Shown: positions 3,669 to 34,958 of the stretch, one piece after another
Position numbering within the stretch: position 1 is the first letter of the stretch
Layout of the letters: the number at the start of each line of letters is the position of its first letter
NCBI GenBank assembly: GCA_035455615.1
Contig: DATIET010000269.1
Span: forward strand, 1-35,884
Direction of reading: 5' to 3'
Source of the DNA: Thermodesulfobacteriota bacterium
GTDB taxonomy: Bacteria; Desulfobacterota_D; UBA1144; Nemesobacterales; UBA2774
Length of the DNA: 35,884 nucleotides
The notes under the pieces: model-generated
The model's input: only the letters and a program-made list of their open reading frames with translations
Told to the model about the DNA's origin: nothing
Database searches by the model: none
Made by a program: the position numbers and the translations under genes

Positions 3669-3717
3669 CTGCTGTACCCCGTATTCAGGTTTATTCTCGA
3701 GGTGATCGTTATAGTTT

Positions 3718-4549: not shown

Positions 4550-4583
4550 TCTCTCTCCTCCGTCCCTTTATGTTTTATTTCCG

Positions 4584-6038: not shown

Positions 6039-7709
6039 CTAAACGATCTTCGCATCGGGCTCGTCCGGCATATCCGGGTGGGCGAGGTCCCAGAGCGGAC
6101 GCCTGCCCCTGACCGGCGGGACGAGCTCGAAATTCTCCACTGCAGGCGGCGATGTGGTGGCCCATTCGAGAGTCCACGCATTCCAGGGGTTATCCCCGGC
6201 GGGCTTCCCGTGCCTGAGACTCACGAGGATATTCCATACGAAGACTATGACCGACAGCCCCAGGATCATCGCCCCTATAGTGGATATGAGGTTCATCGGA
6301 CCCCAGTAGGGCATGTCGTAGTACGTATAAGTGCGCCTGGGCATGCCCATCACTCCCAGGAAATGCTGTATGAAGAACGTCATGTTGAATCCGATCACCG
6401 TGAGCCAGAAGTGCCATTTGCCGAGGGTCTCCGAGAGCATCCGTCCCGTGAACTTGGGGAACCAGTAATAAACGCCCGCGAATATGGCGAAGACAGAGCC
6501 GCCGAAGATGGCGTAATGGAAATGAGCTACTATGAAGTAGCTGTCCGTCACGACCCAGTCTATGGGCACAGATGCGATTGCGACGCCCGTGAGGCCGCCA
6601 ATCACGAACTCTATTATGAACGCCGTGCCGAAGAGCATCGGGGTCGCGAAATTTATCCTTCCGCCCCACATGGTCGCCACCCAGTTGAGCACCTTGACTC
6701 CGGTCGGTATGGCGATAAGCATGCTCGCGAGGGAGAAAAATGCGTTCGTTACGTTGCCGAGCCCTACGGCGAACATGTGGTGCGCCCATACGCCAAGGCT
6801 CAAGAGCCCTATAGCCACGGTAGACGCGGCGACGAACTCATAGCCGTAGATGGGCTTCCTCGAGAAGACCGGGATGACCTCCGAGATGATCCCGAAAGCC
6901 GGGAGTATTAATATGTAGACTTCTGGGTGGCCGAACCCCCAGAAGAAGTGCTGCCAGAGTATGGCCGAGCCGCCGTGCGCTGGGGTGAAGAAGGTCGCGC
7001 CCAGGATGCTGTCGAGGAGCATCATGGCGAAAGCTGCGGTGATTATGGGTATCACGAATACGAGGAGGAGCGACGTGACAAGCATCATCCACACGAAAAG
7101 GGGTATCCTGCGCATCGTCATTCCCGGGGTCCTCATAGTCAGTATCGTGACGACGTTGTTGAGCCCCGAGGCGACCGAGCCTATTCCTGAAGCGAGGAGG
7201 CCGAGCGCCCAGTAAGTTGGCCCCTTGTTGAGAGAGAAAGGCTTTTCACTTAACGGGGCGTACGCGAACCAGCCGACGTCCGGCGCGCCGCTCTGCGTGA
7301 AAAAACTGTAGTAAAGCAGTATGCCGCCAAAGAAAAAGAGCCAGAAGCTGAGCGCGTTCAGACGTGGGAAGGCCATGTCGCGCGCGCCTATCATGAGAGG
7401 GAGGAGGTAAACGCCCACCCCGATGAGGAACGGCATGACGACGAAAAATATCATCGTGGTGCCGTGCATCGTAAAAAGCTGGTTATATAGCTCGGGCGTA
7501 AGGAAATCGTTTCCGGGGTGAGCGAGCTGTACTCGTATAAGGAGCGCTTCGACGCCTCCCAGAAGGAAATAGATGAGTGTTATGATGAGGTACATGATCC
7601 CTATCTGCTTGTGGTCTACGGAAGAGACCCAGCTGAGTAGCCCGTTATTCGCCTTTAGCGAAGGCAGGGGTACGGTATTCTCCGGCACGAGGGGGATTCT
7701 ACTGCTCAT
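6039..7709 (-). CDS. ctaD: Cytochrome c oxidase subunit I (haem-copper oxidase, A-type)
   Basis: 556 aa. FWGFGHPEVYILILPAFG and WAHHMFAVG motifs, 12+ TM pattern. The start overlaps the coxII stop by 11 nt. Confidence 0.95.
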   Translation of the reverse strand: MSSRIPLVPENTVPLPSLKANNGLLSWVSSVDHKQIGIMYLIITLIYFLLGGVEALLIRVQLAHPGNDFLTPELYNQLFTMHGTTMIFFVVMPFLIGVGVYLLPLMIGARDMAFPRLNALSFWLFFFGGILLYYSFFTQSGAPDVGWFAYAPLSEKPFSLNKGPTYWALGLLASGIGSVASGLNNVVTILTMRTPGMTMRRIPLFVWMMLVTSLLLVFVIPIITAAFAMMLLDSILGATFFTPAHGGSAILWQHFFWGFGHPEVYILILPAFGIISEVIPVFSRKPIYGYEFVAASTVAIGLLSLGVWAHHMFAVGLGNVTNAFFSLASMLIAIPTGVKVLNWVATMWGGRINFATPMLFGTAFIIEFVIGGLTGVAIASVPIDWVVTDSYFIVAHFHYAIFGGSVFAIFAGVYYWFPKFTGRMLSETLGKWHFWLTVIGFNMTFFIQHFLGVMGMPRRTYTYYDMPYWGPMNLISTIGAMILGLSVIVFVWNILVSLRHGKPAGDNPWNAWTLEWATTSPPAVENFELVPPVRGRRPLWDLAHPDMPDEPDAKIV

Positions 7710-8721
7710 CCAGCGCCTCCAGGTATGCGACTATGGATTTCACTTCCGAATCCGAGAGCTTCATGTTGGGCATGAAAGCCCCCTGTTTATACCTCTGGGG
7801 GTTGGCGAGCCATTTGGCCAGGTTCTCGGGCGTATTCGTTAGCACCCCGGCGCCTATAGTAGCGCGGTCGGCGAGATGGGTCAGATCGGGCCCGACCCTC
7901 GCTGCCGCTGCCGTCCCGCGTATCGTATGGCAGTTCATGCAGGCCATCGTCTGGAAGAGCTTCGCCCCCTCCCCGGCTATTCCCTCGGTCGGAGTGCGGG
8001 GTATGGCGAGCTGCTCGTCCTGCCATTTATTGAATTCATCCTCCGGCTCCGCGACGACGCGTATACGCATGTTGGCGTGCTGTTCGCCGCAGAACTCGGC
8101 GCAGGCGCCGAGGTACACGCCGGGCTTTCCCGCCACAAGCCAGATGTAGTTGGGGTGTCCCGGGACGAGGTCTATTTTTCTCCCGAGCTCGGGCACCCAG
8201 AAGTCGTGTATCACGTCTATGGATTCGAGACGGACGAGCATTTTTTCCCCTGCCGGTATGTGTATCTCGTTTGAGGTCGATACACCTGAAGACGGATACC
8301 GAATCTCCCACCACCACTGATGGCCTATTATGACCAGGTCGGGCTCCCTGTCTCCGGCCGGGGGGTCCACTGTTTTCATAGTGCTGCACGTAAGAAGGAA
8401 AAGCACAGCGACCATCGCTATCGGTATCGCTGTCCAGACTATTTCGAGCTTTATGTTGCCGAAATCCTGATAGGGCTCGCTGTCGTCGCCCGGCTTCTTT
8501 CTGTACCGGATGATTATGTACGCGACTGCAATGACGATGATGCCGAGTATCACTACGGTTATGGCTATCGTATAGTAGGTTAAACCGGCCATCGCCTCCA
8601 TTTCGGGTGAGCTGGGATTGAAGAGGCCGCCAAGGTTTTCCATTGTGATTTGTCGGAGCGAAGGATTTAAATCGATCGTTAATTCGAACCCCAAATCATT
8701 ATAATGACTAGCGTGCTTCAT
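7699..8721 (-). CDS. ctaC: Cytochrome c oxidase subunit II with C-terminal cytochrome c domain (caa3-type)
   Basis: CuA site CAEFCGEQHANM. C-terminal CMNCH (CxxCH) domain. I prefer the ATG at 8721 (GAGAGG 8 nt upstream). The GTG at 8730 and ATG at 8643 are alternatives. Confidence 0.9.
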   Translation of the reverse strand: MKHASHYNDLGFELTIDLNPSLRQITMENLGGLFNPSSPEMEAMAGLTYYTIAITVVILGIIVIAVAYIIIRYRKKPGDDSEPYQDFGNIKLEIVWTAIPIAMVAVLFLLTCSTMKTVDPPAGDREPDLVIIGHQWWWEIRYPSSGVSTSNEIHIPAGEKMLVRLESIDVIHDFWVPELGRKIDLVPGHPNYIWLVAGKPGVYLGACAEFCGEQHANMRIRVVAEPEDEFNKWQDEQLAIPRTPTEGIAGEGAKLFQTMACMNCHTIRGTAAAARVGPDLTHLADRATIGAGVLTNTPENLAKWLANPQRYKQGAFMPNMKLSDSEVKSIVAYLEALDEQ

Positions 8722-16106: not shown

Positions 16107-18587
16107 TCAGCCCTGCAGTTTCACTATTCTCTGATTTACGGTATTCGCTTGGCTTTCGTACTTGCCTGAGGCTTTCAGGGTTTCCTCCGCTTGTTTCAGT
16201 AACGGGATGTCCTTCTTCGTCCATTTCCCTGATTCGGTTATCTCGGAAATCCGCTTGGCGAAATCGTCCCTCATGTTCTTCCGATCCGCGGTGAAATCCC
16301 AGTTGTCGAGATAGATGCCGAGCAGCGCCGCGCTTTCCTTGCCGTTGATCGAGGCCGGTATTTCCGCAGCATCCGTTCCGATCCATTTGATAAGCATCTC
16401 GGACTCCTCGTCACCGCCGCTTGCGTAGTGTGCGAGCAGGCGGACCTTGTCCGACTCCTGCGGGTATTTGTATGTGGAGCCTAGAACCATAAGCACGGCG
16501 GTCTTGTCGAGCGGGCTCATATTCCAGAGAGCCTGTCTTGCTTTGATGCGGATTACTATCCTCTTGTTTCTGAGCGTTTCCGCGGCAGCGTCCGCCTCGC
16601 CGCTCGCCGCATGCCCCATATTCCCTAACGCTTCGAGCGCTGCGAGCACGCTGTTCGTATTCTCCGGTTTACTGTCATTCCTGGCTCTTATGAATTCGCC
16701 GAGTCCGGGGGCCTGGTCTGATGCGGACGCGCCCATCCTGCCGAGCGCGGTAGCTGTAATCAGCTGAACCCTTTCGCTCTTATCGTTGAGGAGCGCCGCC
16801 ACATCTGCATTATATTTCCTCGCGGGCTCGCCGAGGCCGAGCAGGGCGTCGACGGCGTTGATCCTCACCTTTTCCGATTCGTCTTTCAACATCGCGGCTA
16901 TCTCGGGTATGTAGGATTCGGCTGGCGGCCCTATCTGACCGAGCGCCCATGCGGCTTCTGCGCGGACGATCTCGTCCGGGTCTTTCAGGAGAGGAGCGAT
17001 TTCAGCCACCTGAGCGTCGGCGCCTGGACCAATCTCCCCCAGGGCTTCGAGCGCCGACGACCTTATGGCCGGGTTTCGGTCCTTCAGGAGCGCCGCCACG
17101 GCGGGGGCCATGGGCCTCCCCTTTTCTCCGAGCTCCCTGAAAAGAAATATCCCAGTACCGCGGAACTTAATTTGCTTCTTCTTCAGTAATCCCACGATCT
17201 CCTCTGACTGGGATTCCGTGAATTCACCTATAGAGGCGAGCGCCAGCGCTGCGTTGGCTCTTATTATTTTATATGGGCCATCGAGTAATCCGATTAATGT
17301 GTCCGTAATCTCCGACCCGCCTCCGGCCATCTCTCTTGAAACGAAGATCGCGTGATACCTGACCGCCTCATTGGTGCTTGTCACCTGCTTCAGGATTTTC
17401 GGGGCATAAGTTTTTCCGGCGTCCCCCATTTCGCTCAGTGTGTTCATCGCCGCAATGCGCACTTCGGGGTAGGGGTCGTTGAGGCGCTCGGCAACCCGAG
17501 GGGCCTTGTCCTTTGCGTTCGTTCCCAGTTCGCCGAGCGCGGCGAGTGCTCCGAGCCTCGCATTGGAGTCGATGTCTTTAAGCAAATACACGACAGCGTC
17601 TATGGTGTCGCTCTGCCCTATCGCCGTCTTGCCTATCGTCGCCGCGGCCTGGTCCCTGACCCTGCTGTTTTTATCTTTCAAAAGCTCTACGACGACGAGC
17701 CTCGAATCCTTCGGTATGTCGCCTATGCTGCCGAGCGCCTTCAAAGCGCTGGTTCTAACGTATACGTTCTTTCTCTTAAGCAGACCTGTGAGCTCGTCTG
17801 CGTAATCCGCAGATACTTTCCCGAACGCGCCCAGGGCAGCGGCCGCTCTCATGACGACGTCCACGTCTTCATCATTAAGGAGTTTCGCGATACCGGCGCT
17901 CTCGGCGGCTCCCGCGGGACCAAGGTGCCCGAGTACCTCCAGCGCCCCGGACCTCGCAGACGGGTTTGTGTCACTCAGCAGTTTCACTATTGCGGGTATC
18001 TGCTGTTCGGCTGCTTTCGGGTTTTTCGAAAGCAGCTCGACTGCGGCCATACTCACCTTGCTGCTGCCATCGCTTAGGAGCGGCACCGCCGCCTCCACCT
18101 GCTCAGGGCTGAGACCGCCTATGTTCCCGAGCGCCTGGAGCGCAGTGTAGCGGATGTTGGGGTCTTCGTCGGTCAGGCTTTTCATGATTACGGGGATCAG
18201 GTCCCTCGAAGACTCTCCCATCCCGCCCGCAGCCGTCAAAGCGGCCCTCCGTATTTGCGGGTTTTCGTCCTTGAGGAGCTGCGGGAGTCCCGGCATATCG
18301 CTCCTTTTCTTCGACTTTGCAAGCTCGTTTATCGCTTCTATCCTGACCTTGGGATCCGGGTCTTTCAGTGCCCGGCTGAGTCCCTCAACCTGCCATGGTT
18401 CGAAAACGGCCGCCGGTTCGATCTCGATCGCGGGCATTTTCTCGGATGCGTAACCCGAAGGAGTGAAAAGGCATGCCGCTGCGATTGATATAGCGAGCAG
18501 CATTATGCGGGCGGGCCGCGGTCGGGGGGTATCCGAAGTATCCGCGCTTCGCTTTTCTGTGTGACTGCAACTGTATGGCAAGCTCAT
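16107..18587 (-). CDS. Exported HEAT-repeat (PBS-lyase HEAT-like) protein
   Basis: 826 aa. AGGGAG lies 7 nt upstream of the ATG at 18587. Signal-like segment RIMLLAISIAAACLFTPSGYA. About 20 tandem units of roughly 31 aa of the form LLKD.dp.VR..A..ALG.iG. Non-repeat C-terminal domain of about 150 aa. Confidence 0.85.
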   Translation of the reverse strand: MSLPYSCSHTEKRSADTSDTPRPRPARIMLLAISIAAACLFTPSGYASEKMPAIEIEPAAVFEPWQVEGLSRALKDPDPKVRIEAINELAKSKKRSDMPGLPQLLKDENPQIRRAALTAAGGMGESSRDLIPVIMKSLTDEDPNIRYTALQALGNIGGLSPEQVEAAVPLLSDGSSKVSMAAVELLSKNPKAAEQQIPAIVKLLSDTNPSARSGALEVLGHLGPAGAAESAGIAKLLNDEDVDVVMRAAAALGAFGKVSADYADELTGLLKRKNVYVRTSALKALGSIGDIPKDSRLVVVELLKDKNSRVRDQAAATIGKTAIGQSDTIDAVVYLLKDIDSNARLGALAALGELGTNAKDKAPRVAERLNDPYPEVRIAAMNTLSEMGDAGKTYAPKILKQVTSTNEAVRYHAIFVSREMAGGGSEITDTLIGLLDGPYKIIRANAALALASIGEFTESQSEEIVGLLKKKQIKFRGTGIFLFRELGEKGRPMAPAVAALLKDRNPAIRSSALEALGEIGPGADAQVAEIAPLLKDPDEIVRAEAAWALGQIGPPAESYIPEIAAMLKDESEKVRINAVDALLGLGEPARKYNADVAALLNDKSERVQLITATALGRMGASASDQAPGLGEFIRARNDSKPENTNSVLAALEALGNMGHAASGEADAAAETLRNKRIVIRIKARQALWNMSPLDKTAVLMVLGSTYKYPQESDKVRLLAHYASGGDEESEMLIKWIGTDAAEIPASINGKESAALLGIYLDNWDFTADRKNMRDDFAKRISEITESGKWTKKDIPLLKQAEETLKASGKYESQANTVNQRIVKLQG

Positions 18588-18913: not shown

Positions 18914-19345
18914 ATGTCCTACGAAAGGGATGATCGGGATTTACTGACGATGTTCAAAGACGGCATAAACAAGGGCCTCAGGGTGATTAATATAAGATCG
19001 AAAGAGGCATACGACACGCTTAAGATCAAAAATACAATCAGGCAGCTCGAGCGCAGGAGGAGGGACGCTGTCTACGATATGGGCGCCTCGGTCTACAGGA
19101 CCTTCACGCACACTGGGAAAATCGTCGAGGATACCGTGGCCGCCAGGTGTGCGGATATAGATAGAATAGAATCCGAGATCGAGGGGTGGCGGGAGGATCT
19201 GAATCTCGTCCATCTGAACGCCCGGAAGGCCCTCGGGAGCGTCAAGGCCCTCGCCAGGCCCAGGGTTGCCGCGTTCTGCGACTGCGGGGCCGAGATAGAG
19301 GAGGGGGCCAGGTTTTGCGGTCAATGCTACAAGGAACTCAATTGA
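18914..19345 (+). CDS. Zinc-ribbon domain protein with coiled-coil N-terminal region
   Basis: 143 aa. GAGGAG 8 nt upstream. C-terminal CDCGAEIEEGARFCGQC (CxC..CxxC) zinc ribbon. Confidence 0.7.
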   Translation: MSYERDDRDLLTMFKDGINKGLRVINIRSKEAYDTLKIKNTIRQLERRRRDAVYDMGASVYRTFTHTGKIVEDTVAARCADIDRIESEIEGWREDLNLVHLNARKALGSVKALARPRVAAFCDCGAEIEEGARFCGQCYKELN

Positions 19346-19492: not shown

Positions 19493-19521
19493 TTGACATT
19501 AAACCGATTACGATATAGAGT
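19493..19521 (+). promoter_or_regulatory. Putative sigma70-type promoter for the riboswitch-led transcript
   Basis: Perfect TTGACA at 19493..19498. TAGAGT follows after a 17-nt spacer (or TATAGA after 15 nt), about 30 nt upstream of the aptamer. Confidence 0.45.
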
Positions 19522-19549: not shown

Positions 19550-19650
19550 GACCGAAAAGGCAAACCATTCGAAAGGGTGGGACGCAAAGCCACAGGCCTG
19601 AATGCTCCGGGTATGAGCATGATGGCGGCTGGGCCGCCGAAGTCGGGATA
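19550..19650 (+). promoter_or_regulatory. c-di-GMP-I (GEMM-I) riboswitch aptamer
   Basis: 19559..19591 reads GGCAAACCATTCGAAAGGGTGGGACGCAAAGCC. As I recall it, the Vibrio cholerae Vc2 aptamer has GGCAAACCAUUCGAAAGAGUGGGACGCAAAGCC. The single difference turns a U-A pair into a U-G wobble in the GAAA-capped stem. A second stem-loop (ATGCTC-CGGGTAT-GAGCAT) follows. P1 closure is CCGA (19552..19555) with TCGG (19643..19646). Confidence 0.88.
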
Positions 19651-19828: not shown

Positions 19829-22800
19829 ATGTCGGGCGTAACTGTTTCCGGGTCAGGAAGGGTAAGGGTATCGGCGCGGCTCATAGGCAATGACTGCGAA
19901 TTCTCCTGCGTCGTGCTGGACGGAGCGAAAGGGAGCGGCGGAATCCCGCGCGCAATCCTCGACCAGCTCCGCGACTGTCTCCTCCGAACGGGCATACGTC
20001 TAGACCTCCTCTCCGATTTCACCTTTTTAAACGGACATTACATCGAGCGTTTCGAAGAGCTTGCCGGGGAATGCGTGCTCGGCGTGCTGATACTGGACGG
20101 GCTCGGGCCCGAAGAGCTGTACGAGCTCGGGTATCTGAGGGGCCGCGGAAAATTCATACTCACGTTCGGGAATAAAAATACCGCGGACGCAGATGGGACT
20201 GTTACAAACCTGAGCAGTGCCGCTGGAGAAAAGCCTACCGGCTTCGCTGCATATTCCGGGAAAGAGCAGGATCACGACGATGCGCGCTATTACTGTGACA
20301 AATTCATCAGCCGTCATATGTCTGACATCGCCGGCTCAGGGCCGGACGGGGAAGCCGGTCCGGGCGATCGGCCGGAAACGAGAATCGTGAACGATCTGAG
20401 CCGTGCGCTCCCGGGCGTTATCGACAGGTACGTATCGGATTCGCTCGGGGATGCCGGAAGCGGGGTGGAGGCGGAGAGCCTGCGCGGTTTGGCGCTCAGG
20501 ATATCCGGGTACTTCGCGTCGAGGAGCGGATTCGGAATGTTCGATCTCGACGATATCTACGAAGGGCTTGTATCATGGGAATCCCGGACGGGGCGGAGCG
20601 CCCCTTCGCGCGTGCTCCGCTGTCTCGCTTCACTATACACGGGTCTCGACTCTCCCGGGGCGGGTGAGGACGCCGGGCGCGAGTGCCGGATGAAACTCGT
20701 CTCCATATACGAAAAGATACTCGAGCGGGAAAAACCGGGGCTTCTCGCGGGAGTCACCGCAAAGAGGCTCGCCGACCTGCTCGTCACCCGTCCGTTCGCG
20801 GAAGATGCGGCCGGAGATATCGAGCGAGCGGCCGGGTTATACAAAGAAATCCTGGGTTTTTTTACAAAGGACAAATACCCCCGCGAGTCCGCGTCCGTCC
20901 GCAATAACCTCGGAGCCGCGTTAAACGCGCTTTGCCTCAAGACCGGAGAGCCCGCTTACGCGAGGCAGGCGGTGGAATCCATCGCGGAGTCCCTGTCGTC
21001 TGAAATTTTCAAAAATTCCCCGTACGACCGTGCGCTCTCGTACCGGAACCTCGGCTCCGCATACGCGAGCCTCGCCGTTCACGAAAACCCCCGCGAGAAC
21101 TATCTGAAGGCCGCCGAAGCGCTCGGCATCGCGCTCGACATTTACAAATCATGCGAGCGGCATGACGATATCGCCGAGACGTGCGGAGCCCTCGGGGACG
21201 TATATACGCGGCTAGCCGGGGAGAGCGGCGAGACGCCCTGTTATACGCAGGCATTGAGCTCTTACGAGGAAGCCCTTCGCATATATACGGCCGATAATTT
21301 CCCAGGCGAATACGCGGACTTAATGACTAGGCTCGGCGACGCGCGCGCCTCGCTCGCGCTTAAGCTGGGCGACCCTCATGACTACGAGGAGGCCCTTAAG
21401 GCCTACGGGGAATCGCTCGGCGTTTATACCCGCGAAGGGGCGGCCGCCGAGGCCGACACGCTCAACGTCAGGATAGGCCGTGTCTACAAGGCACTCGGCG
21501 ACAGGGAGGCCGATTCGAATAACACGGACAAGGCGATCGAATATTATGACGAGGCATTACTTTATTACCCTGAAGAAACGGCCCGCGGGGAGCACGCCGC
21601 CTCCGGCAGGAAGCTCGGCGAGGCATTTGAAAGGCTGTATAGAGAGAGCGGGGACGAAACCCATATAAGGAAGGCCATAGCCGCGTATTCGGAAGCGCTC
21701 TACGCCTCGGGTGTCGCCGGCGATCCCGGCACCCGTGATATCGAGCTCGCTCTCCGGGCCCTGTATACGGGGCTTGCGGATCATCTGGAGAGGTCGGGCG
21801 ATCACGAGGGAGCGGCCGAATGCTGCAAGGGGCTTCTCGGTCTCTTAGACCCTCTCGATTACCCGATGGAATACGCGGAAGCCCAGAGGAGGCTGGGCGG
21901 TCTCCTTGCCGGCATACCGAAGCAGTACGAAAGGGCGCTTAATATCGAGCTCGCAATAGATTCGTACAAGGAGGCGCTCGGCTTCTACGTGGAGGAATCC
22001 CATGCGGATGTGAGGAATGAGCTCCGCGGCCTCGTCGGAGGGCTGTTGACGGAGCTCGCCGATTACGAGCCGCGGGACTTGAATAAGAGAATAGGTCTTT
22101 ATCAGGAAGCGCTCGAATATTATCCGTCAGGCCCGTTCCCGTACGAGCACGCCCTTATACAGAAGGCGCTCGGCGGGGCGCATTCCGAATTGAGCTTTGC
22201 GGAAGAGCCTCATCAGAACGCATGCAAGGCTGTGGATTATTATAATAAGGCGCTCGAGTATCTGAGCCTCCGGGAGCACCGCCGGGAATTCGCTTCGGCG
22301 CATTATGATCTGGGTGCGCTCTATGCGCGTCTTTACGATATTTCAGGTGACAGGGAGTTCCTCGGCCGCTCTGTCTCCGCCTACGAGAAGTCGACAGCGG
22401 GTTACACGCCTGAAGAATCGCCTGATGAATACGAGGCGGCCCTGAAAGGGCTCGAAGTGGTGCGGGGTTTGATCTCGGAGACGGAAAGGGCCATGGCCTC
22501 CGGTGACGAGGCCCCGGTCGTGGACGGCCCGGAGGAAGACGAAAAACCGAAAGAGAGGCCCGTGCTCAAGCTCGTCTCGGAAGACGCGCATGAAAGGGAG
22601 GAAGGGTCTGCTCCGGGGTCAGGAGATGAAGACAACGAGATAATAACGCTCGCCCGCGAAGTCGAATTCGACGACCCGGAAGAGGCGGCGGAGTATTTCG
22701 AGGAGAGTCTCAGGCGAATATCGAAAGAGGAATTCCCCGCCGAGTACGCCTCTCTTAAGCTCGGCCTAGGCAGGGTGTACGGGGAGCTCGGGGAAGCTGC

Positions 22801-24370
22801 CGGGGGCGCGAATGACTTCAGAAAAGCGCTCAAGGCATACGAGGACTCCCTCGCGTTCTACACCCGGGAAAATTTCCCTGTCGAGTTCGCCGAGGCCACA
22901 AGCGGCTCAGCCTTCTCGTGGATGCAGCTCGCTGACCAAACGGGGGACATCAAGGGCTACGAGCGCGCCGCCGCCTCATACAACGAGGCGCTCCGCGTCG
23001 TCACCAGGGAGTCAGCTCCGCTCGAGTGGGGAGGGATAAAGGAAAATCTCGGTAACATATACCGCACGCTCGCCCAGATGAAGGGGGAAGCCGGGGAATA
23101 CAGGAAGGCTGTCGCGGAATATAACGAAGCGCTCGAAGTCTTCGGCCCCGGGGAGCACCAGCCCGAATACGGGAGGATTCAAAAAAATATCGGCTTCGTA
23201 TACGGCATTCTTGCGGGGGTGGAAGACCGCACGGAGGATTACACCCGGGCGCTCGACGCGCTGACCAAGGCACTCACTGCTTACGGGCAGGAGGACGCGC
23301 CCGCGGAATACGCTGAGATACATAAGTACTTGGGCATCGCGTATGGCAACATCGCGAGGAAGGACGGCGTGCCGGAATATTACGGGAAGGCGGTAGACGC
23401 CTACGCGAAAGCGCTCTCGGTCATTACGTTCGAGACCTCCCCCAAGGATTACGGGCTCATAAAGAGGAACACGGCTTCCGCATTCGACAGCCTCTCCAAA
23501 TTTTCGGACGCCGCCCAGGACATGATATCCGCGGTTCGGTCCTACGAAGAAGCGCTCGGATACTATACGTGCGAGCGCATGCCCGCCGAGTACGCGTCCA
23601 TATTGAGCGGCCTCGGCAACCTGTACCAGCGTCTCGCCGAGAAGGAGGACGCCTCGGGGAACTGCAGGAATGCCGTCAAGTGCTACGAGCGGCTGCTCAA
23701 GGTCTATAACATAAAGGAATACCCGCTCGAATACGCCGCCACCGAGAACAACCTCGGGATCATCTACAGGACCCTCGCCGAGCAGGAGGAAAAGGGTAAG
23801 AACTGCAAGAGGGCAGTGAACGCGTACAGGGAGGCGCTCAGGGTATATAACGATAAGGAGCACCCGGTACAGTACGGCTCGACGAAGAACAACCTCGGCA
23901 CCGCTTACATGACTCTTGCCGACGTCGAGGATAAGGAGATCAACTGCAGGATGGCGCGGAGCGCGTTCGAGGAGGCGCTCAAGGTGAGGACCATTCAGAA
24001 CTATCCGATGCAGTTCGCTGCGACCCAGAACAACCTGGGTGTCGTCTACAGGATGCTTTCCGAGGTCGAGGACAGGGCGAAGAATTGCAAGAGGGCAGTA
24101 AATGCATACGAGACCGCGCTCATAATTTATACGATCGACAGGTTCCCGATACAGTACGCGACCACGCAGAACAACATCGGCGGGGCCTATACCACGCTCG
24201 CGGAGGAGGAAGACAGGAGCAAAAACTGCGACAAGGCGTCCGAGGCGTACCAGGAAGCGCTCAAGGTGTTTACGAAAAATTCCTACCCGTCGCAGCACGA
24301 GATTGTGAAAGCCAATCTGGAGCTCCTCTGCGAATTCAGCGGGCAGAAGGCTTCGACTGCTGCTCCGTAA
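19829..24370 (+). CDS. Giant repeat protein: N-terminal TIR-like/nucleoside 2-deoxyribosyltransferase-like domain, then two arrays of 47-aa TPR-like repeats split by an acidic linker
   Basis: 1513 aa. AGAGGATAAAGGG precedes the ATG. The N-domain contains CVLGVLILDGLGPEELYELGYLRGRGKFIL (ELGY-type motif). The repeats follow A..Y.EAL.vYT.E.FP.EYA....NLG..Y..LA. No Walker A, signal peptide or TM segment seen. Confidence 0.85.
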   Translation: MSGVTVSGSGRVRVSARLIGNDCEFSCVVLDGAKGSGGIPRAILDQLRDCLLRTGIRLDLLSDFTFLNGHYIERFEELAGECVLGVLILDGLGPEELYELGYLRGRGKFILTFGNKNTADADGTVTNLSSAAGEKPTGFAAYSGKEQDHDDARYYCDKFISRHMSDIAGSGPDGEAGPGDRPETRIVNDLSRALPGVIDRYVSDSLGDAGSGVEAESLRGLALRISGYFASRSGFGMFDLDDIYEGLVSWESRTGRSAPSRVLRCLASLYTGLDSPGAGEDAGRECRMKLVSIYEKILEREKPGLLAGVTAKRLADLLVTRPFAEDAAGDIERAAGLYKEILGFFTKDKYPRESASVRNNLGAALNALCLKTGEPAYARQAVESIAESLSSEIFKNSPYDRALSYRNLGSAYASLAVHENPRENYLKAAEALGIALDIYKSCERHDDIAETCGALGDVYTRLAGESGETPCYTQALSSYEEALRIYTADNFPGEYADLMTRLGDARASLALKLGDPHDYEEALKAYGESLGVYTREGAAAEADTLNVRIGRVYKALGDREADSNNTDKAIEYYDEALLYYPEETARGEHAASGRKLGEAFERLYRESGDETHIRKAIAAYSEALYASGVAGDPGTRDIELALRALYTGLADHLERSGDHEGAAECCKGLLGLLDPLDYPMEYAEAQRRLGGLLAGIPKQYERALNIELAIDSYKEALGFYVEESHADVRNELRGLVGGLLTELADYEPRDLNKRIGLYQEALEYYPSGPFPYEHALIQKALGGAHSELSFAEEPHQNACKAVDYYNKALEYLSLREHRREFASAHYDLGALYARLYDISGDREFLGRSVSAYEKSTAGYTPEESPDEYEAALKGLEVVRGLISETERAMASGDEAPVVDGPEEDEKPKERPVLKLVSEDAHEREEGSAPGSGDEDNEIITLAREVEFDDPEEAAEYFEESLRRISKEEFPAEYASLKLGLGRVYGELGEAAGGANDFRKALKAYEDSLAFYTRENFPVEFAEATSGSAFSWMQLADQTGDIKGYERAAASYNEALRVVTRESAPLEWGGIKENLGNIYRTLAQMKGEAGEYRKAVAEYNEALEVFGPGEHQPEYGRIQKNIGFVYGILAGVEDRTEDYTRALDALTKALTAYGQEDAPAEYAEIHKYLGIAYGNIARKDGVPEYYGKAVDAYAKALSVITFETSPKDYGLIKRNTASAFDSLSKFSDAAQDMISAVRSYEEALGYYTCERMPAEYASILSGLGNLYQRLAEKEDASGNCRNAVKCYERLLKVYNIKEYPLEYAATENNLGIIYRTLAEQEEKGKNCKRAVNAYREALRVYNDKEHPVQYGSTKNNLGTAYMTLADVEDKEINCRMARSAFEEALKVRTIQNYPMQFAATQNNLGVVYRMLSEVEDRAKNCKRAVNAYETALIIYTIDRFPIQYATTQNNIGGAYTTLAEEEDRSKNCDKASEAYQEALKVFTKNSYPSQHEIVKANLELLCEFSGQKASTAAP

Positions 24371-24433: not shown

Positions 24434-24976
24434 TTGAAGACTCCGCTCTACATTCTATTTTCCGTGACCGTGCTTCTCGCGGGCGAACGGGCTTTCGCCG
24501 TGGGGAAGGAAACGCTCGTCGATATAACGGGCGTCGCCGTCGTGGTGGACGAGGTGTCGCCTGCCGCGAGGGAGGACGGGCTCAGTGAGACCGGAATAAA
24601 GGCATTGGTCGAGGATAAGCTCACCAGGGCCAACATCATGGTGCTCGAAGACCGCGAGTGGTTCATGGTCTTCGGGGGCTCATACCTTCTTATCAAGATC
24701 ATAGCCAGCAAGGCCGTGAGTGGAGACAGGTACGCGGTCTACATCGACATGGAGCTCTATCAGACGGTCGTGCTGATGGGGAAGAGGCTCGGGCAGAATA
24801 TCAACACGGCTGCCGCCACGTGGTCCATAGGGAAGCTCTTTTCCTGCAATTCCACAGCGTTGGAGGACTGTGTAGAGGGTACTGTCGCGGAGCTCACAGG
24901 CCTGTTCATCAAGGATTACATAGAGGTAAACACGCTAAAGTGGAAGCAGGAGCAGGAGAGGCTCCAGAAGAAGTGA
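24434..24976 (+). CDS. Small exported protein of unknown function
   Basis: 180 aa. Apparent TTG start 64 nt after the repeat-protein stop. Signal peptide KTPLYILFSVTVLLAGERAFA-VG. Basic, coiled C-terminus (KWKQEQERLQKK). Confidence 0.55.
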   Translation: MKTPLYILFSVTVLLAGERAFAVGKETLVDITGVAVVVDEVSPAAREDGLSETGIKALVEDKLTRANIMVLEDREWFMVFGGSYLLIKIIASKAVSGDRYAVYIDMELYQTVVLMGKRLGQNINTAAATWSIGKLFSCNSTALEDCVEGTVAELTGLFIKDYIEVNTLKWKQEQERLQKK

Positions 24977-31407: not shown

Positions 31408-32182
31408 GGGGGAGGGGATTTCTCTTTTTGTTCTGTCATTGTTGTAGATGTTAAATAATTCGTGGCTGGAATTTTTCTGGATAACATGTAATGAAGGGGG
31501 TTTGTATTTCCCGACATGCACAAACGATTCCGAGCTAGTGAGGAATTGGTCGCGCCTGGTTGAGAGCACGAACGTATTATCCATCCTCCCATCGTTATTG
31601 AAGCCAAATTAGAGGAATCGGTCGCCCTTGCTTATGAGCAACAACGTAAATTCATCCGGCACGACAAATCTTCATCGCTCCTTATGCGGGCGGAATTGAT
31701 AGATTTTCGCCGTAATAAGATATTTTAGCCAGGATTCTGTGCTGTCTTTTCATAAACCATACTACGTGTGTGATTTTTGCTTCTTTCCAGGCTACGGCAG
31801 GCTCCGCCCTGACGAGTCATCAAGGAAAAGAAGAGCAATATATCGCTTTCTTTTGTATTCCGATGGGACAACTTTTGTCCACGAATTACTTGACATCTAA
31901 AATTGCGAGGAACGGTTCTGAACGTGTGCAAGAACCGATGGCCGAAATGACACAATGTGGGGAAGTCCTGTGTAAAAAAGTAACGCATTACCCGATCGTT
32001 TCCTCGAACCCATGCTCCGGGCATCGGTGCGCTCGCATCACCTCTATCGTGCCTGCCATCCCTTAAAGCCTCTGCAGTAAACTCGTCCCGGTTTCTGGTC
32101 GGAGCTAATGTATTAAAACTATGGAATTATTATCAGTACCGCAAGCAGACTTTTGTATTTATAAAAAAGTACTTGAGGCCTG

Positions 32183-32211
32183 TTTACATTTATGCTTAAC
32201 TATAATATAAT
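32183..32211 (+). promoter_or_regulatory. Near-consensus sigma70 promoter heading the low-GC two-component module
   Basis: TTTACA (32183..32188), a 17-nt spacer, then TATAAT (32206..32211). It lies in AT-rich DNA, so a chance match is possible. Confidence 0.45.
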
Positions 32212-32256
32212 AATTTGGGGGTTTCTGTTTTCTTTTATTCTGAGGTGGTCGGAATA

Positions 32257-32484
32257 ATGGAAAAAACTTTAAATTTCGGGGTGGTCCGTACCAAAATTGC
32301 CTTGATTAAACTGACCTGCATGTCAGTTATCTGTGTGTTATATCTTATTAAAAAGAAATTTGGTTCTCACCACTCCATAATACCTAAAACACATGACGAG
32401 GATCCGGATCTATTCGCCAGTGGGGTATTCTTCTCAATTCTATTCTCCAAGCGGTTGATTCCGAATTCTCTGATTACTATTTGA
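32257..32484 (+). CDS. Possible small hydrophobic protein (75 aa)
   Basis: ATG at 32257 with GAGGTGG 8 nt upstream. One hydrophobic stretch (IALIKLTCMSVICVLYLI). No recognisable family. Confidence 0.25.
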   Translation: MEKTLNFGVVRTKIALIKLTCMSVICVLYLIKKKFGSHHSIIPKTHDEDPDLFASGVFFSILFSKRLIPNSLITI

Positions 32485-32519
32485 TACCGTATTTAGAAAG
32501 TTGTAAGGGAGGATATCAA

Positions 32520-32633
32520 TTGCCAGCAATTATGAAAATTTTAGTGTTAGATTGCTTGCAAACCATGCATATACAAACTCCCAATTATCTAACTGGTGGA
32601 ACGAGTTATGTAAGTATAGGGATATGGGTATGA
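32520..32633 (+). CDS. Possible 37-codon small ORF behind a strong Shine-Dalgarno
   Basis: AAGGGAGG (32505..32512) lies 7 nt before the TTG at 32520. An in-frame ATG is at 32532. It encodes MPAIMKILVLDCLQTMHIQTPNYLTGGTSYVSIGIWV, with a stop at 32631..32633. Confidence 0.2.
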   Translation: MPAIMKILVLDCLQTMHIQTPNYLTGGTSYVSIGIWV

Positions 32634-32708
32634 CTAAATTAAATTTAGTAGAAATAAAAAATTTATGAGAGATTCTTGTACACGTAATATCAAGTCGACG
32701 GGTAGAGC

Positions 32709-34958
32709 ATGATAATGAAGGGCATGATTGAGAATACCAAAATTATGAAACCAACTAGTAATGAACCTCTATTGCTCCATCAGAACATCGATCGAAGTAC
32801 CTACAATCTTGTATTTGTATTAAATATTAATTACGAACTTATATTTACCAGTCCCAACCTTGTTAGTGTTTTGGGTTATGAAGCCGAAGGTTTTGTGGGT
32901 ACAAACTTTTTTCAACATGTTCATACTGATGATTGTGAGAGGGTTAAGGCCGAATTTGATAATTCATTTTGGATTATTTCCAAAATAATCGGACAAGATA
33001 ATTATGAACTTAATGTCGGCGACATTTTTAAGTTAACAACAAAAGACCGGATTAAGACTTTTCTACAAAACTATTCTAAAACACTCAGATCTCTGTCTGC
33101 AATTAAGCCAATTATGTTCAGAGTCAAACGAAAGAACGGAAAATGGTGCTGGCTTGAAAGCAGCGGTATCCCTTTTCTTGCGGAACATGGCGAGATCATG
33201 ATAACGATTTCAGCCTGTGACGTCACAGAGCGCATTAAGCTGCAGGAGGCGCTTAAATTTAACTTGAAGAAGCTTAACAAAACAAGAAGGCATGAGAGTA
33301 TCATACGGGCTATTACTCAAGATGTTCACAAAACTATCAATTTACAGGAAGTGTTTGATAACGCTGTTTATGCCATTCACAAAAACGTACTTGGGGCGAA
33401 AAATGTTGCAATATACATAATTGAGAATGGCAATGCGGTTATTAAGTCTCACAATGGATTCCCCGATAGGTTTCTCGATAGAGTAAGAATAATTCCTTAT
33501 CCCAAAGACTACACATGGAAAACGATTATTGATGAGAAGTCCATATACTGTGCCGATGTAGTCAGGGATCCCATAGTCGGCAGAGTGGGAAGGGAGATTG
33601 GAGTTAAAAGTTATTTATCAATGCCTATTCGTTCCAGGAACAGTATACTGGGTGTGATAAATATTAGTTCAACCAAGAAAAATATCTTCGACAAGAATGA
33701 GTTGATGTTGCTTGAACATATAACGCAGCAAATAGAAACCGCTATCAATAATGCTCAAAAAGCTGAAAAGTTAAGAAAGAGTGAAAAACGTTTCAGGACC
33801 CTCTTCGAAAATGTGCCAACCGGGGTTTATAGAATTACTCCTGACGGCCAGATACTGGATGCGAATCCGTCATTCATAGCTATGCTGGGTTTTTCATCGA
33901 TAGAGGAATTGGCCGTAAATGTGATTCAACATCAGCATTTCAGGTGCGATGGTACCTGGGAGGAAGTCAGGAAAACCATTGAGCGGCATGGAGAGATAAA
34001 AGGCATGGAATCCGTATGGAATAAACGGGACGGGACAAAGATATTTGTACTTGAGAATATTACGGTGCTGAGAACAGACGACGGAAATATTTTATTTTAT
34101 GAAGGGACAGTCGAAGAAATTACCGAACGTAAAGTAGCGGAAAATAAGTTAAAAGAGGTTAATTTAAATCTGGAAAAGGAGATCAGCAGAAGAACTGCTC
34201 TACTGATAAAAGCCAACAAATCCCTGCGAAAAGAAATATCTGAGAAGAGGCTGAAGGAAGCCGAACTCGAGAATTCATACAAGCAGCTTCGCGCACTCAC
34301 AACACACCTGGAGTCGGTACGCGAAGAAGAAAGAACCAAGATATCGCGGGAGGTTCATGACGAGTTAGGACAGTCATTGACGGGTCTGAAAATAGATCTT
34401 GACCTGCTAAGTAAGCACCTCTGCGAAAGTGATGACAATTCCCGGACCGGGAAACTCACTGAAATGATAAATAAGATGTCGGCTCTCGTTGATTATAATA
34501 TTCAGTCGGTTCGCAGAATAGCGATGGAGCTGAGACCCGGTATCCTTGATGATCTGGGAATGGTTGCAGCTATCGAATGGCAGGTACAGGATTTTGAAAA
34601 ACTTACCGGTATTAAGTGCATCTTCAGCTCTGAAGCGGAGGATATCCCCTTGGACCGAGAGGTTTCGACTGCCCTATTCCGTATTTTTCAGGAAGTCATA
34701 ACTAACATCGCGCGCCATTCGAAAGCTACAGTTGTAAATGTAAATATAAAAGACTGTCGCAGCGAATACATACTGGAAGTTGAAGATAACGGAGTAGGGA
34801 TCTCGAACGACGCGATGGTCGCTCCGCAATCCTTGGGATTACTCGGAATGAAAGAACGTGCCTTGATTTTCGGGGGTAATGTAAAGATAACAAGTGAATA
34901 TAACAAAGGGACCAAAGTCTCGGTAAATGTTCCTAAAGCGAGGTGCTCTAATGATTAG
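32709..34958 (+). CDS. Soluble sensor histidine kinase, PAS-GAF-PAS-HisKA_3-HATPase_c
   Basis: 749 aa with no TM segments. PAS-like segments near LIFTSPNLVSVLGYEAEGFVG and YRITPDGQILDANPSFIAMLGF. A GAF-like block lies between them. Coiled coil, then H-box REVHDELGQSLTGLK (HisKA_3 type). ATPase N and G boxes (EVITNIARHS, VEDNGVGIS, GLLGMKERA). Confidence 0.88.
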   Translation: MIMKGMIENTKIMKPTSNEPLLLHQNIDRSTYNLVFVLNINYELIFTSPNLVSVLGYEAEGFVGTNFFQHVHTDDCERVKAEFDNSFWIISKIIGQDNYELNVGDIFKLTTKDRIKTFLQNYSKTLRSLSAIKPIMFRVKRKNGKWCWLESSGIPFLAEHGEIMITISACDVTERIKLQEALKFNLKKLNKTRRHESIIRAITQDVHKTINLQEVFDNAVYAIHKNVLGAKNVAIYIIENGNAVIKSHNGFPDRFLDRVRIIPYPKDYTWKTIIDEKSIYCADVVRDPIVGRVGREIGVKSYLSMPIRSRNSILGVINISSTKKNIFDKNELMLLEHITQQIETAINNAQKAEKLRKSEKRFRTLFENVPTGVYRITPDGQILDANPSFIAMLGFSSIEELAVNVIQHQHFRCDGTWEEVRKTIERHGEIKGMESVWNKRDGTKIFVLENITVLRTDDGNILFYEGTVEEITERKVAENKLKEVNLNLEKEISRRTALLIKANKSLRKEISEKRLKEAELENSYKQLRALTTHLESVREEERTKISREVHDELGQSLTGLKIDLDLLSKHLCESDDNSRTGKLTEMINKMSALVDYNIQSVRRIAMELRPGILDDLGMVAAIEWQVQDFEKLTGIKCIFSSEAEDIPLDREVSTALFRIFQEVITNIARHSKATVVNVNIKDCRSEYILEVEDNGVGISNDAMVAPQSLGLLGMKERALIFGGNVKITSEYNKGTKVSVNVPKARCSND

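What the first reader, a model, noticed from the sequence alone, without database searches (positions are those of the whole stretch)
19829..20203. N-terminal domain with an ELGY motif resembling TIR-like / nucleoside 2-deoxyribosyltransferase-like effectors
Residues about 80-112 read ECVLGVLILDGLGPEELYELGYLRGRGKFILTF. This is a buried beta-strand, a loop, then x-E-L-G-Y followed by a basic G-rich turn and another strand. The same layout occurs in the (N)VxFELGYfxGxLGxxRVxxL segment of Cap12/Pycsar-type TIR-like domains and NDT-like domains, where the Glu is catalytic or ligand-contacting. The candidate Glu is E99, codon 20123..20125. Residues about 125-330 that link it to the repeats have no recognisable motif.
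Basis: inference. Interest (0 to 1): 0.6.

Follow-up and report, generated by a model that had tools for sequence, protein, structure and literature searches.

The report
Degenerate TIR-like head on giant TPR protein
The first ~115 residues of a 1513-residue repeat protein from an uncultured Dadabacteria bacterium are a real but eroded relative of the TIR-like NAD-cleaving domains of bacterial immune effectors. The gene is inherited vertically behind a c-di-GMP riboswitch, so it looks more like a domesticated binding or assembly module than a defence enzyme.

Summary
Residues 80-112 of ORF 19829..24370 (+) read as stated, and E99 is codon 20123-20125.

The homology reading holds only through an extended family. 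No library model hits the N-terminus directly. A profile of the orthologs finds 63 remote relatives with the signature LDG-x-RPN-x-x-x-E-x-G-x-L-x-G-x-x-KP.
- 33 of the 63 hit Pfam PF10137 (CAP12/Pycsar TIR), and two split forms pass its cut-off.
- Profile-profile comparison with bona fide PF10137 domains gives 95% probability (E 3.7e-8).
- The AlphaFold model's best PDB matches are nucleoside 2-deoxyribosyltransferases, DNPH1, MilB and TIR domains.

The catalytic "effector" reading is weak.
- The Arg and Asn that hold NAD+ in SfSTING (R78, N80) are replaced by G93 and E95.
- E99 is E, Q, F or S among syntenic orthologs.
- The Dadabacteria clade is nested inside the canonical family.
- The locus is syntenic in all seven genomes examined (three genera), lies among housekeeping-type genes, and sits behind a conserved c-di-GMP-I riboswitch.

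Residues 116-181 are a disordered linker, and residues 182 onward are a helical solenoid with no NTPase.

Verdict: a new, degenerate variant of a known domain kind, probably non-catalytic. The scan noted the same protein in another genome (e1-1410409).

The parts
19493..19521 (+). Sigma-70-like promoter match (TTGACA-17-TAGAGT, 10/12) just upstream of the riboswitch
   Evidence: Consensus scan only. Function not shown.
19550..19642 (+). c-di-GMP-I-clan riboswitch aptamer in the 5' leader of the gene, 186 nt before the start codon
   Evidence: Rfam RF03167 at 66.1 bits (gathering 59) and RF01051 at 68.6 bits (gathering 35). The same element lies upstream of all six orthologs examined, in three genera.
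19829..24370 (+). Gene for the 1513-aa TIR-like/TPR protein. It is predicted soluble, with no segment of TM-like hydropathy.
   Evidence: ORF and translation. The conserved N-terminus MSxxTVSG in orthologs supports this start. The maximum 19-aa Kyte-Doolittle mean is 1.23.
19886..20173 (+). Residues 20-115: degenerate TIR-like (PF10137-related) Rossmannoid domain, with b1 25-31, a1 41-53, b2 56-60, a2 71-81, b3 82-89, aC-like helix 94-105 and b4 109-114
   Evidence: AF2 model, Foldseek and VIA-align matches to NDT and TIR folds, HHalign at 95% to PF10137. It is the most conserved part of the protein within the genus, at 73% identity.
20096..20152 (+). Residues 90-108: D90-G-L-G93-P-E95-E96-L-Y-E99-L-G101-Y-L-R-G105-R-G-K108, the remnant of the family motif D-G-x-R-P-N-V-x-x-E-x-G-x-L-x-G-x-x-K
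   Evidence: Column counts over 67 family members. Alignment to PF10137 R-Q-N-V-I-x-E. The SfSTING roles of R78, N80 and E84 are from PMC9402430.
20123..20125 (+). Codon of E99, the counterpart of the catalytic Glu of TIR-like and NDT enzymes
   Evidence: It varies as E/Q/F/S among orthologs.
20174..20371 (+). Residues 116-181: low-complexity (A/D/G/S-rich), poorly conserved, predicted disordered linker
   Evidence: pLDDT 24-35 in the 420-aa model, 33% identity within the genus, composition.
20372..22477 (+). Residues 182-883: first alpha-solenoid / TPR array, including the TPR-S (PF20308) matches. It has no NTPase module.
   Evidence: Helical hairpins from residue 182, pLDDT 70-93. Pfam TPR-S scores 55.6 bits against a cut-off of 27.6, with best stretch 430-493.
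22478..22678 (+). Residues ~884-950: Glu/Asp/Pro-rich hinge between the two repeat arrays
   Evidence: Sequence composition.
22679..24367 (+). Residues ~951-1513: second, more regular TPR_12-type array
   Evidence: Pfam TPR_12 at 84.4 bits, with stretches such as 1076-1152.
24434..24976 (+). 180-aa protein with an N-terminal hydrophobic signal-like segment, 63 nt downstream on the same strand. It is syntenic with the TPR gene in all orthologous loci.
   Evidence: ORF, no Pfam family, conserved position in 6 genomes at 52-86% identity. Co-transcription is inferred, not shown.

Best explanation
Residues ~20-115 form a four-stranded Rossmannoid domain. It descends from the TIR-like (CAP12/Pycsar-type, PF10137) branch of the TIR-DrHyd(NDT)-SLOG class.

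Its closest canonical relatives carry an intact S...D-G-x-R-P-N-x-x-x-E-x-G motif. They are fused to TPR/TPR-S sensor repeats, or are translationally coupled to a separate TPR/TPR-S gene. That is the usual effector-plus-sensor layout.

In one Dadabacteria family this module became a vertically inherited chromosomal gene:
- the repeat arm grew to 1400-3100 residues;
- a c-di-GMP-I riboswitch was placed in the leader;
- the substrate-holding residues were lost (S to G32, R to G93, N to E95), and the catalytic-equivalent Glu became dispensable (E, Q, F or S).

The head nevertheless remained the most conserved part of the protein.

Inferred mechanism: the head no longer cleaves NAD+ in the canonical way. 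It acts as a ligand-binding and/or self-associating (TIR-type head-to-head) module, tethered by a ~65-residue flexible linker to a huge TPR scaffold. The cell makes the protein, probably together with the downstream exported 180-aa protein, according to c-di-GMP level, as part of a regulon that is otherwise mostly envelope and secreted proteins.

Shown: homology, fold, motif erosion, synteny, riboswitch presence and regulon content. Inferred: loss of catalysis, binding or assembly role, co-transcription, direction of riboswitch control.
For: Homology chain:
- The ortholog-only profile A1 finds 63 relatives (11 at E<=1e-10) in 1.84 billion proteins, nearly always at the N-terminus.
- 33/63 hit PF10137 and 17/63 hit PF05014.
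- Two split relatives exceed the PF10137 cut-off, at 25.7 and 30.1 bits against 24.7.
- HHalign of the family profile against 8 genuine PF10137 domains from the same phylum gives Prob 95%, E 3.7e-8. G93-P94-E95 aligns on R-Q-N and E99 on the invariant Glu.

Fold: AF2 pLDDT is 77-94 in the core. Foldseek's top hits are NDT 6qai and 2a0k (E ~3e-4), DNPH1, BcmB, TIR and TIR-STING. VIA-align gives 6qai Z 9.9, MilB Z 9.3 and SfSTING TIR Z 8.5.

Erosion: in 60 distant relatives the counts are R93 52, N95 51, E99 53 and S32 33. The window clade has G93, E/D95 and G32, and E99 is E, Q, F or S. In SfSTING, S10, R78 and N80 coordinate NAD+ and E84 is catalytic (PMC9402430). The Dadabacteria clade is nested within the canonical family on a tree rooted with PF10137 (SH-aLRT 89).

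Selection: the head is 73% identical within the genus, against 33% for the linker and 60-69% for the solenoid.

Context:
- The block unk500-MFS-HEAT | Zn143-riboswitch-TIR/TPR-SP180 | HisRS is conserved in the window and in all six other genomes examined, across three genera.
- The riboswitch is upstream of every ortholog.
- The genome holds 8 such riboswitches and 5 GGDEF genes. The other riboswitches precede CBM96, RTX/CAP, SLT-SPOR and GSDH-like proteins, small exported proteins and a PilZ-aminotransferase.
- PADLOC gives no significant match (best E 0.16, in the TPR part).

Inactive members of this class are described as nucleotide-binding sensors (PMC9503650).
Against: - The window itself keeps D90 and E99, and gained E95/E96 next to them. 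An altered active site that is still catalytic is not excluded.
- E99 is E in 7 of 9 species of the genus examined (G000-G004, G008, G009; Q in G006 and G007), so it could matter in this lineage.
- No ligand, partner or oligomer has been observed. The assembly or binding role is an inference by analogy.
- The model shows four strands where the class normally has five, and the shallow-alignment model of residues 1-420 gives the head only pLDDT 44-69.
- Synteny in Dadabacteria may reflect general genome collinearity rather than functional linkage.
- The best Rfam model for the riboswitch is the GGC variant RF03167. I could not verify its ligand specificity here.
Confidence: 0.6

Rival explanations
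1. Active conflict or defence effector. The head is a working NADase or N-glycosidase (TIR-like), switched on when the TPR/TPR-S arm senses an invader or a stress signal, as proposed for TIR-plus-repeat proteins.
For: - Canonical relatives have the complete motif and a TIR-like + TPR-S layout, either fused or as overlapping gene pairs.
- One relative lies beside an integrase fragment, and several lie near tRNA genes.
- The window keeps D90 and E99.
- TPR-S is a sensor-type repeat by its Pfam name.
Against: - R93 and N95, and the S after strand 1, are lost. E99 is replaced by Q, F or S in orthologs at the same locus.
- The gene is vertically inherited, and its locus is syntenic in all seven genomes examined (three genera), among housekeeping-type genes.
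- PADLOC gives no significant match.
- No cyclase, CD-NTase or sensor domain is nearby.
- Expression is under a metabolite-type riboswitch shared with envelope genes.
Confidence: 0.2
2. NDT/DNPH1/MilB-type nucleoside or nucleotide N-glycosidase or transferase, acting on a nucleotide rather than NAD+, perhaps one tied to cyclic-dinucleotide metabolism.
For: - The top structural matches are NDTs, DNPH1 and MilB.
- ELGY....GK is shared letter for letter with Lactobacillus NDT in the ungapped alignment. NDTs are the best PDB profile hits, at E 0.076-0.45.
- 17/63 relatives touch PF05014.
Against: - HHalign to NDT domains of the same phylum gives only Prob 17%, over the motif region alone.
- All PDB sequence hits are sub-significant.
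- The strand-1 loop motif of these NDTs (LYLANPYGFS) is absent.
- The argument from a variable Glu applies here too.
Confidence: 0.08
3. A generic flavodoxin-like or receiver-like alpha/beta domain whose ELGY motif resembles TIR/NDT by chance.
For: - No direct hit to any library model.
- The ortholog-only profile against PF10137 gives Prob 11%.
- Many unrelated Rossmannoid folds score Z 7-8.
Against: - There is a significant chain of homology through the canonical family.
- Catalytic-site columns are aligned consistently in three independent comparisons.
- 9 of the top 11 VIA-align hits are NDT or TIR.
Confidence: 0.05

Closest known systems
CAP12/Pycsar effector TIR-like domain (Pfam PF10137), e.g. 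the TIR domain of SfSTING (PDB 7UN8)
   Same: - Same Rossmannoid fold.
[quoted passage not shown]
- Glu99 aligns with the catalytic Glu (E84 in SfSTING), and the G and K/G-rich turn that follow are shared.
- HHalign gives 95% and the structural match gives Z 8.5.
   Different: - The window's sequence is not detected by the Pfam model.
- It lacks the ~16-residue insert before the R-x-N motif.
- R and N are replaced by G and E.
- The strand-1 HG/S loop is replaced by a Gly-rich loop.
- There is no STING, SAVED or cNMP sensor domain and no cyclase operon.
- It is fused to a giant TPR array and controlled by a riboswitch.
Unannotated canonical 'RPNVxFExG' TIR-like + TPR/TPR-S proteins found here (e.g. 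MFX0097485.1 from Hodarchaeota, MGR3311514.1 from Brocadiales, and metagenome loci L047, L052, L060, L062)
   Same: - Same N-terminal domain (E down to 1e-19 from the ortholog profile).
- Same head-linker-TPR layout.
- TPR-S matches in 14/63.
- The window's clade is nested among them.
   Different: - They keep S, R, N and E.
- They are 280-790 aa long, or split into two overlapping genes.
- None of the 18 loci examined has a riboswitch.
- They occur in scattered taxa.
Nucleoside 2-deoxyribosyltransferase / DNPH1 / MilB family (Pfam PF05014; PDB 6QAI, 1F8X, 4OHR)
   Same: - Best overall structural matches (Foldseek E 3e-4, Z 9.3-9.9).
- An identical E-L-G-Y...G-K stretch around the nucleophile Glu.
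   Different: - Sequence-profile similarity is not significant (Prob 17%, PDB E >0.07).
- The strand-1 loop differs.
- NDTs are small stand-alone oligomeric enzymes, not heads of repeat proteins.
Catalytically inactive scaffolding TIR domains (e.g. MyD88, IL-1R family; PDB 7BEQ, 7FCC)
   Same: The fold matches at Z 7.8-8.0. They set a precedent for TIR domains that act by self-association rather than catalysis.
   Different: They are eukaryotic, with no detectable sequence relationship here. Self-association of the window's domain is untested.

Membership tests
PF10137 CAP12/Pycsar TIR-like domain | Score at or above the Pfam gathering cut-off (24.7 bits) | tested here: not met
   The window's residues 1-330, and the full protein, give no PF10137 hit even at E<=1. 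PF10137 searched over the whole genome finds nothing. Relatives score 20-23 bits, and two split forms score 25.7 and 30.1 bits.
PF10137 CAP12/Pycsar TIR-like domain | Profile-level homology to bona fide members | tested here: met
   HHalign of A3 against A5 gives Prob 95%, E 3.7e-8, covering window residues 42-114 and PF10137 positions 11-102. This holds only with the extended family. The ortholog-only profile gives Prob 11%.
PF10137 CAP12/Pycsar TIR-like domain | R-x-N-x-x-x-E motif after strand 3 (R78, N80, E84 in SfSTING) | tested here: not met
   The window has G93-P94-E95-E96-L-Y-E99, so only the Glu is kept. R is present in 52/60 and N in 51/60 distant relatives. Residue roles are from PMC9402430.
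PF10137 CAP12/Pycsar TIR-like domain | Partnership with a cyclic-nucleotide sensor domain (STING, SAVED, cNMP-binding) and a cyclase or CD-NTase gene | tested here: not met
   No such domain is in the protein or in the neighbouring genes. PADLOC gives no significant match.
TIR-DrHyd(NDT)-SLOG class of Rossmannoid domains | [quoted passage not shown] | tested here: met
   The AF2 topology is b1-a-b2-a-b3-loop-helix-b4. Conserved D90, G91, P94, E99 and G101 lie in that loop and helix. Top fold matches are NDT, MilB and TIR. The class definition is from PMC9503650.
TIR-DrHyd(NDT)-SLOG class of Rossmannoid domains | Central five-stranded sheet | tested here: inconclusive
   Only four strands are predicted before the disordered linker. 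Distant relatives have a further conserved INIKTLY-like segment that the window lacks.
Nucleoside 2-deoxyribosyltransferase (PF05014) | Pfam model or profile-level match | tested here: inconclusive
   No direct Pfam hit. HHalign gives Prob 17%, E 1.4e-3, over the motif only. PDB profile hits to NDTs have E 0.076-0.45. 17/63 relatives hit below the cut-off.
Nucleoside 2-deoxyribosyltransferase (PF05014) | Nucleophile Glu in the E-x-G motif | tested here: met
   E99 aligns with the Glu of MELGY, FEIGF and VELG in three comparisons. It is not invariant among orthologs.
Nucleoside 2-deoxyribosyltransferase (PF05014) | Strand-1 loop motif of the family (LYLANPYGFS in the NDTs of the same phylum) | tested here: not met
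   The window has FSCVVLDGAKGSGG at that place.
TPR-S sensor repeats (PF20308) | Score above the gathering cut-off (27.6 bits) | tested here: met
   55.6 bits, three stretches, best at 430-493.
Known anti-phage systems (CBASS, Pycsar, Thoeris and others in PADLOC) | Match to a system component model and a defence-island context | tested here: not met
   PADLOC's best E is 0.16, in the TPR part only. Neighbours are HisRS, MFS, a glycosyltransferase and a HEAT-repeat protein, and they are syntenic in all seven genomes examined, across three genera.

The most novel reading that the evidence does not exclude
A conflict-system module (TIR-like effector + TPR-S sensor) was domesticated in Dadabacteria into a housekeeping, c-di-GMP-riboswitch-controlled giant scaffold. 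Its catalytically dead TIR-like head now works by binding a nucleotide-derived ligand or by head-to-head polymerisation, organising an envelope or biofilm programme together with the exported 180-aa partner. This would be a bacterial parallel to the shift from enzymatic to scaffolding TIR domains in animals.
Probability: 0.3. Interest if true: 0.65.

Novelty: new variant of a known kind. Interest (0 to 1): 0.45.

Why it matters
TIR-like domains are central enzymes of bacterial, plant and animal immunity, and how they turn into non-enzymatic adaptors is an open evolutionary question. This case offers three things.
- It defines a widespread subfamily (RPNVxFExG head + TPR/TPR-S) whose head no source annotation seen here names. 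The subfamily sits mostly just under the PF10137 cut-off and reaches Asgard archaea and anammox bacteria.
- It shows a graded natural series in one syntenic locus: full motif, then R/N lost, then Glu lost, then Asp lost. That series could be used to ask what a TIR-like fold does once catalysis is gone.
- It links such a domain to c-di-GMP riboswitch control, which would place it in lifestyle signalling rather than phage defence.

For annotation, it gives a name to the N-terminus of a conserved giant protein of the uncultured Dadabacteria.

Tried and rejected
Direct library searches found nothing for the N-terminus.
- Pfam, NCBIfam and PADLOC scans of residues 1-125, 1-330 and the full protein were empty for that region.
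- phmmer of residues 1-330 against PDB gave only chance antibody hits.
- The ortholog-only profile gave a single non-significant NDT hit in PDB (E 1.6) and Prob 11% against PF10137.

A STAND/NTPase module between head and repeats was rejected. There is no Pfam hit, and residues 182-420 fold as helical hairpins.

A receiver-domain reading was rejected. Response regulators appear only at Z 7.3-7.6, below NDT and TIR, and no profile links the domain to them.

Riboswitch control is not a general trait of the domain family. None was found in 18 metagenome loci of canonical members.

Literature gave limited help.
- The search for the term 'TPR-S' in the two eLife conflict-system papers found no occurrence.
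- I found no paper establishing the ligand of the c-di-GMP-I-GGC variant.

Contexts came from the genome search, the fetch from genomes and the search for related loci instead.
- The protein-atlas search could not read the sequence.
- The search for related loci with the broad alignment A3 failed for lack of a conserved stretch. A1 and A7 were used.
Full report
**Observation.** The window's largest ORF, 19829..24370 (+), encodes 1513 residues. An AlphaFold2 model of residues 1-135, built on a 46-sequence alignment, has mean pLDDT 73.8 and 77-94 in the core. It gives strand 25-31, helix 41-53, strand 56-60, helix 71-81, strand 82-89, loop 90-93, helix 94-105, turn 106-108 and strand 109-114. 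The described strand-loop-ELGY-basic turn-strand layout is therefore real, and ELGY sits in the helix after strand 3.

**Direct searches fail.** Pfam, NCBIfam and PADLOC find nothing in residues 1-330. The rest of the protein is TPR_12 and TPR-S (PF20308, 55.6 bits). phmmer against PDB gives only chance hits.

**Orthologs and organism.**
- Six close homologs (48-96% identical over residues 1-330) exist in the 5.8-billion-protein set.
- The gene is found in 8 of 9 other species of the genus and in parts of the family.
- Record titles identify the lineage as Candidatus Dadabacteria MAGs.
- Within the genus, the head (residues 20-115) is the most conserved part at 73% mean identity. The linker 116-181 is at 33% and the solenoid at 60-69%.
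- E99 is not invariant. It is E in the window and 6 of the 8 other genus species examined, and in one other genus (G011). It is Q in G006, G007 and five metagenomic relatives, F in G014 and S in G021.

**Extended family.** A profile of the orthologs' first 118 residues was scored against 1.84 billion representative proteins. It finds 63 proteins at E<=1e-3, 11 of them at E<=1e-10, and the match is almost always at the N-terminus.
- Their signature is C-V-L-G-I-V-I-L-D-G-(F/L)-R-P-N-V-L-F-E-(F/Y)-G-x-L-x-G-x-x-K-P.
- Scanned one by one, 33 of 63 hit PF10137 (CAP12/Pycsar effector TIR domain; best 2.5e-7) and 17 hit PF05014 (nucleoside 2-deoxyribosyltransferase).
- 32 carry TPR_12 and 14 carry TPR-S.
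- Most PF10137 scores lie just under the 24.7-bit cut-off. Two 279-287-aa members recovered from metagenomes exceed it, at 25.7 and 30.1 bits.
- Named members are annotated only as 'hypothetical' or 'TPR repeat protein', from Hodarchaeota and Brocadiales.

**Profile-profile test.**
- I collected eight genuine PF10137 domains (66-139 bits) from genomes of the same phylum and compared them with the family alignment headed by the window's sequence.
- HHalign gives Prob 95.0%, E 3.7e-8, aligning window residues 42-114 to PF10137 positions 11-102. L-G93-P-E95-E-L-Y-E99-L-G lies on a-R-Q-N-V-I-x-E-L-G. PF10137 has a ~16-residue insert before the motif that this family lacks.
- The same test against NDT domains of the phylum gives Prob 17%, over the motif only.
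- With the ortholog-only profile the PF10137 match disappears (Prob 11%). The relationship is therefore visible only through the canonical intermediates.

**Structure.**
- Foldseek against PDB ranks NDTs (6qai and 2a0k, E ~3e-4, TM 0.55), DNPH1, the CMP N-glycosidase BcmB, plant TIR domains and TIR-STING at the top.
- The Foldseek-independent VIA-align search gives 6qai Z 9.9, 7m5h Z 9.5, MilB Z 9.3, further NDTs at Z 8.3-8.8 and the SfSTING TIR at Z 8.5. Generic Rossmannoid folds follow at Z 7-8.
- PDB sequence-profile hits are sub-significant but again are NDTs, Cap12 and TIR proteins. The E99 column lies on the NDT nucleophile Glu.

**The active site is eroded.**
- In SfSTING, S10, R78 and N80 coordinate NAD+ and E84 is the catalytic residue (PMC9402430). 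The R/+2 N/+6 E spacing is exactly that of R93, N95 and E99 in the canonical family.
- Among 60 distant relatives, R93 occurs in 52, N95 in 51, E99 in 53, D90 in 54 and S32 (after strand 1) in 33.
- The window's clade has G93, E/D95 and G32, a new invariant E96, and a variable position 99.
- The 2822-3092-aa orthologs of other genera vary further. G014 also lacks D90 and K108 is T in G011.
- On a tree rooted with PF10137, the family is separated from PF10137 (SH-aLRT 98). All motif-eroded sequences form one clade nested among canonical TPR-fused members (SH-aLRT 89). The alignment is short and many forks are unresolved.

**The rest of the N-terminal third.** A model of residues 1-420 shows 115-179 disordered (pLDDT 24-35). 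From residue 182 there is an uninterrupted series of helical hairpins (pLDDT 70-93) that continues into the TPR array. There is no NTPase. No 19-residue window is hydrophobic enough for a membrane helix.

**Context.**
- The block 'unknown 500-aa protein, MFS transporter, exported HEAT-repeat protein (minus strand) | 143-aa zinc-ribbon protein, TIR-like/TPR protein, 180-aa signal-peptide protein (plus strand) | HisRS' is conserved in the window and in all six other genomes examined, representing three genera.
- Following a lead from the scan's notebook, I confirmed a c-di-GMP-I-clan riboswitch at 19550-19642 (+). It scores 66 bits on RF03167 and 68.6 bits on RF01051. It lies 186 nt before the start codon, and the same element precedes all six orthologs.
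- A promoter-like site lies at 19493-19521, and no intrinsic terminator-like site follows the aptamer on the plus strand.
- The genome has eight such riboswitches and five GGDEF genes. The other seven riboswitches precede a CBM96 protein, an RTX/CAP protein, an SLT-SPOR transglycosylase, a GSDH-like protein, small exported proteins, one protein with no Pfam family and a PilZ-aminotransferase fusion.
- None of 18 metagenome loci with canonical family members has a riboswitch.
- In those loci the head is either fused to ~400-600 residues of TPR/TPR-S, or encoded as a 270-290-aa protein whose stop overlaps the start of a 420-810-aa TPR-S gene. This fused/split pattern argues for a functional head-sensor unit.

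**Interpretation.**
This is a TIR-like domain of the PF10137 branch, with NDT-like structural neighbours.
- The effector part is doubtful for this protein. Three of the four polar NAD+-site residues are gone. The Glu is replaceable in orthologs that share locus and riboswitch. The gene behaves as a vertically inherited member of a c-di-GMP regulon rather than a mobile defence gene. Yet the head is the best-conserved region.
- I therefore favour a non-catalytic ligand-binding or self-association role on a flexible tether to a giant TPR scaffold (0.6). An altered but active glycosidase remains the main rival (0.2).

**Limits.**
- There is no experimental evidence.
- The AF2 model is of moderate confidence.
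- The tree rests on ~125 columns.
- The riboswitch's ligand and logic were not tested.
- The look-up of encoding contigs and the ESM Atlas were unavailable.

Noticed in passing
window 19550-19642 (+); L011-L016: A c-di-GMP-I-clan riboswitch (best model RF03167, the GGC variant) lies in the 483-nt leader of the gene. It is conserved upstream of every ortholog in three genera. No plus-strand terminator-like site follows it, so control may be translational or Rho-dependent.
   Followed up: partly
G000 contigs C19, C209, C280, C255, C363, C249, C98 (loci L070-L077): Seven more c-di-GMP-I riboswitches occur in this 2.6-Mb genome. They precede a CBM96 protein, an RTX/CAP protein, an SLT-SPOR transglycosylase, a GSDH-like protein, small exported proteins, one protein with no Pfam family and a PilZ-aminotransferase fusion. 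The last has c-di-GMP control at both the RNA and the protein level.
   Followed up: partly
L062:5971-6810 + 6800-8350; L060:1710-2573 + 2575-4998; also L055, L056, L059, L061, L064: In metagenomes the canonical TIR-like head occurs as a separate 270-290-aa protein. Its gene overlaps the start of a 420-810-aa TPR-S gene. These are split versions of the fused architecture.
   Followed up: partly
L047:5323-5820; tRNA genes in L049, L052, L058, L059, L061: One canonical family member sits next to a phage-integrase fragment, and several sit within a few kb of tRNA genes. This hints at mobile or island contexts for the canonical forms.
   Followed up: no
L015:7680-16148 (G014) and L016:1855-11133 (G011): Orthologs in two other genera are 2822 and 3092 aa, twice the size of the window's protein, through expansion of the repeat arm.
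   Followed up: no
G007:C9:1781197-1782078, G008:C1:259403-260284, G020:C2:257205-258002, G017:C8, G012:C7: A second, paralogous ~1550-1590-aa protein with weak similarity to the head and the first solenoid (E 1e-6 to 1e-17) exists in some relatives. It was not found in the window's own, 89%-complete genome.
   Followed up: no
window 16107-18587 (-) and 18914-19345 (+): An 826-aa HEAT-repeat protein with an N-terminal hydrophobic signal-like segment, and a 143-aa helical protein ending in a zinc ribbon, flank the leader. Both are syntenic with the TPR gene in all six other genomes examined.
   Followed up: partly
window 32001-35000: GC content drops from ~57% to 36-44%. The region encodes a PAS-GAF-PAS histidine kinase (32709-34958) and a LuxR-type response regulator (34927-35580), and is possibly acquired DNA.
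   Followed up: no
L028 (G006:C21:2832-3170): A genuine PF10137 gene in a congeneric genome carries an in-frame TGA.
   Followed up: no
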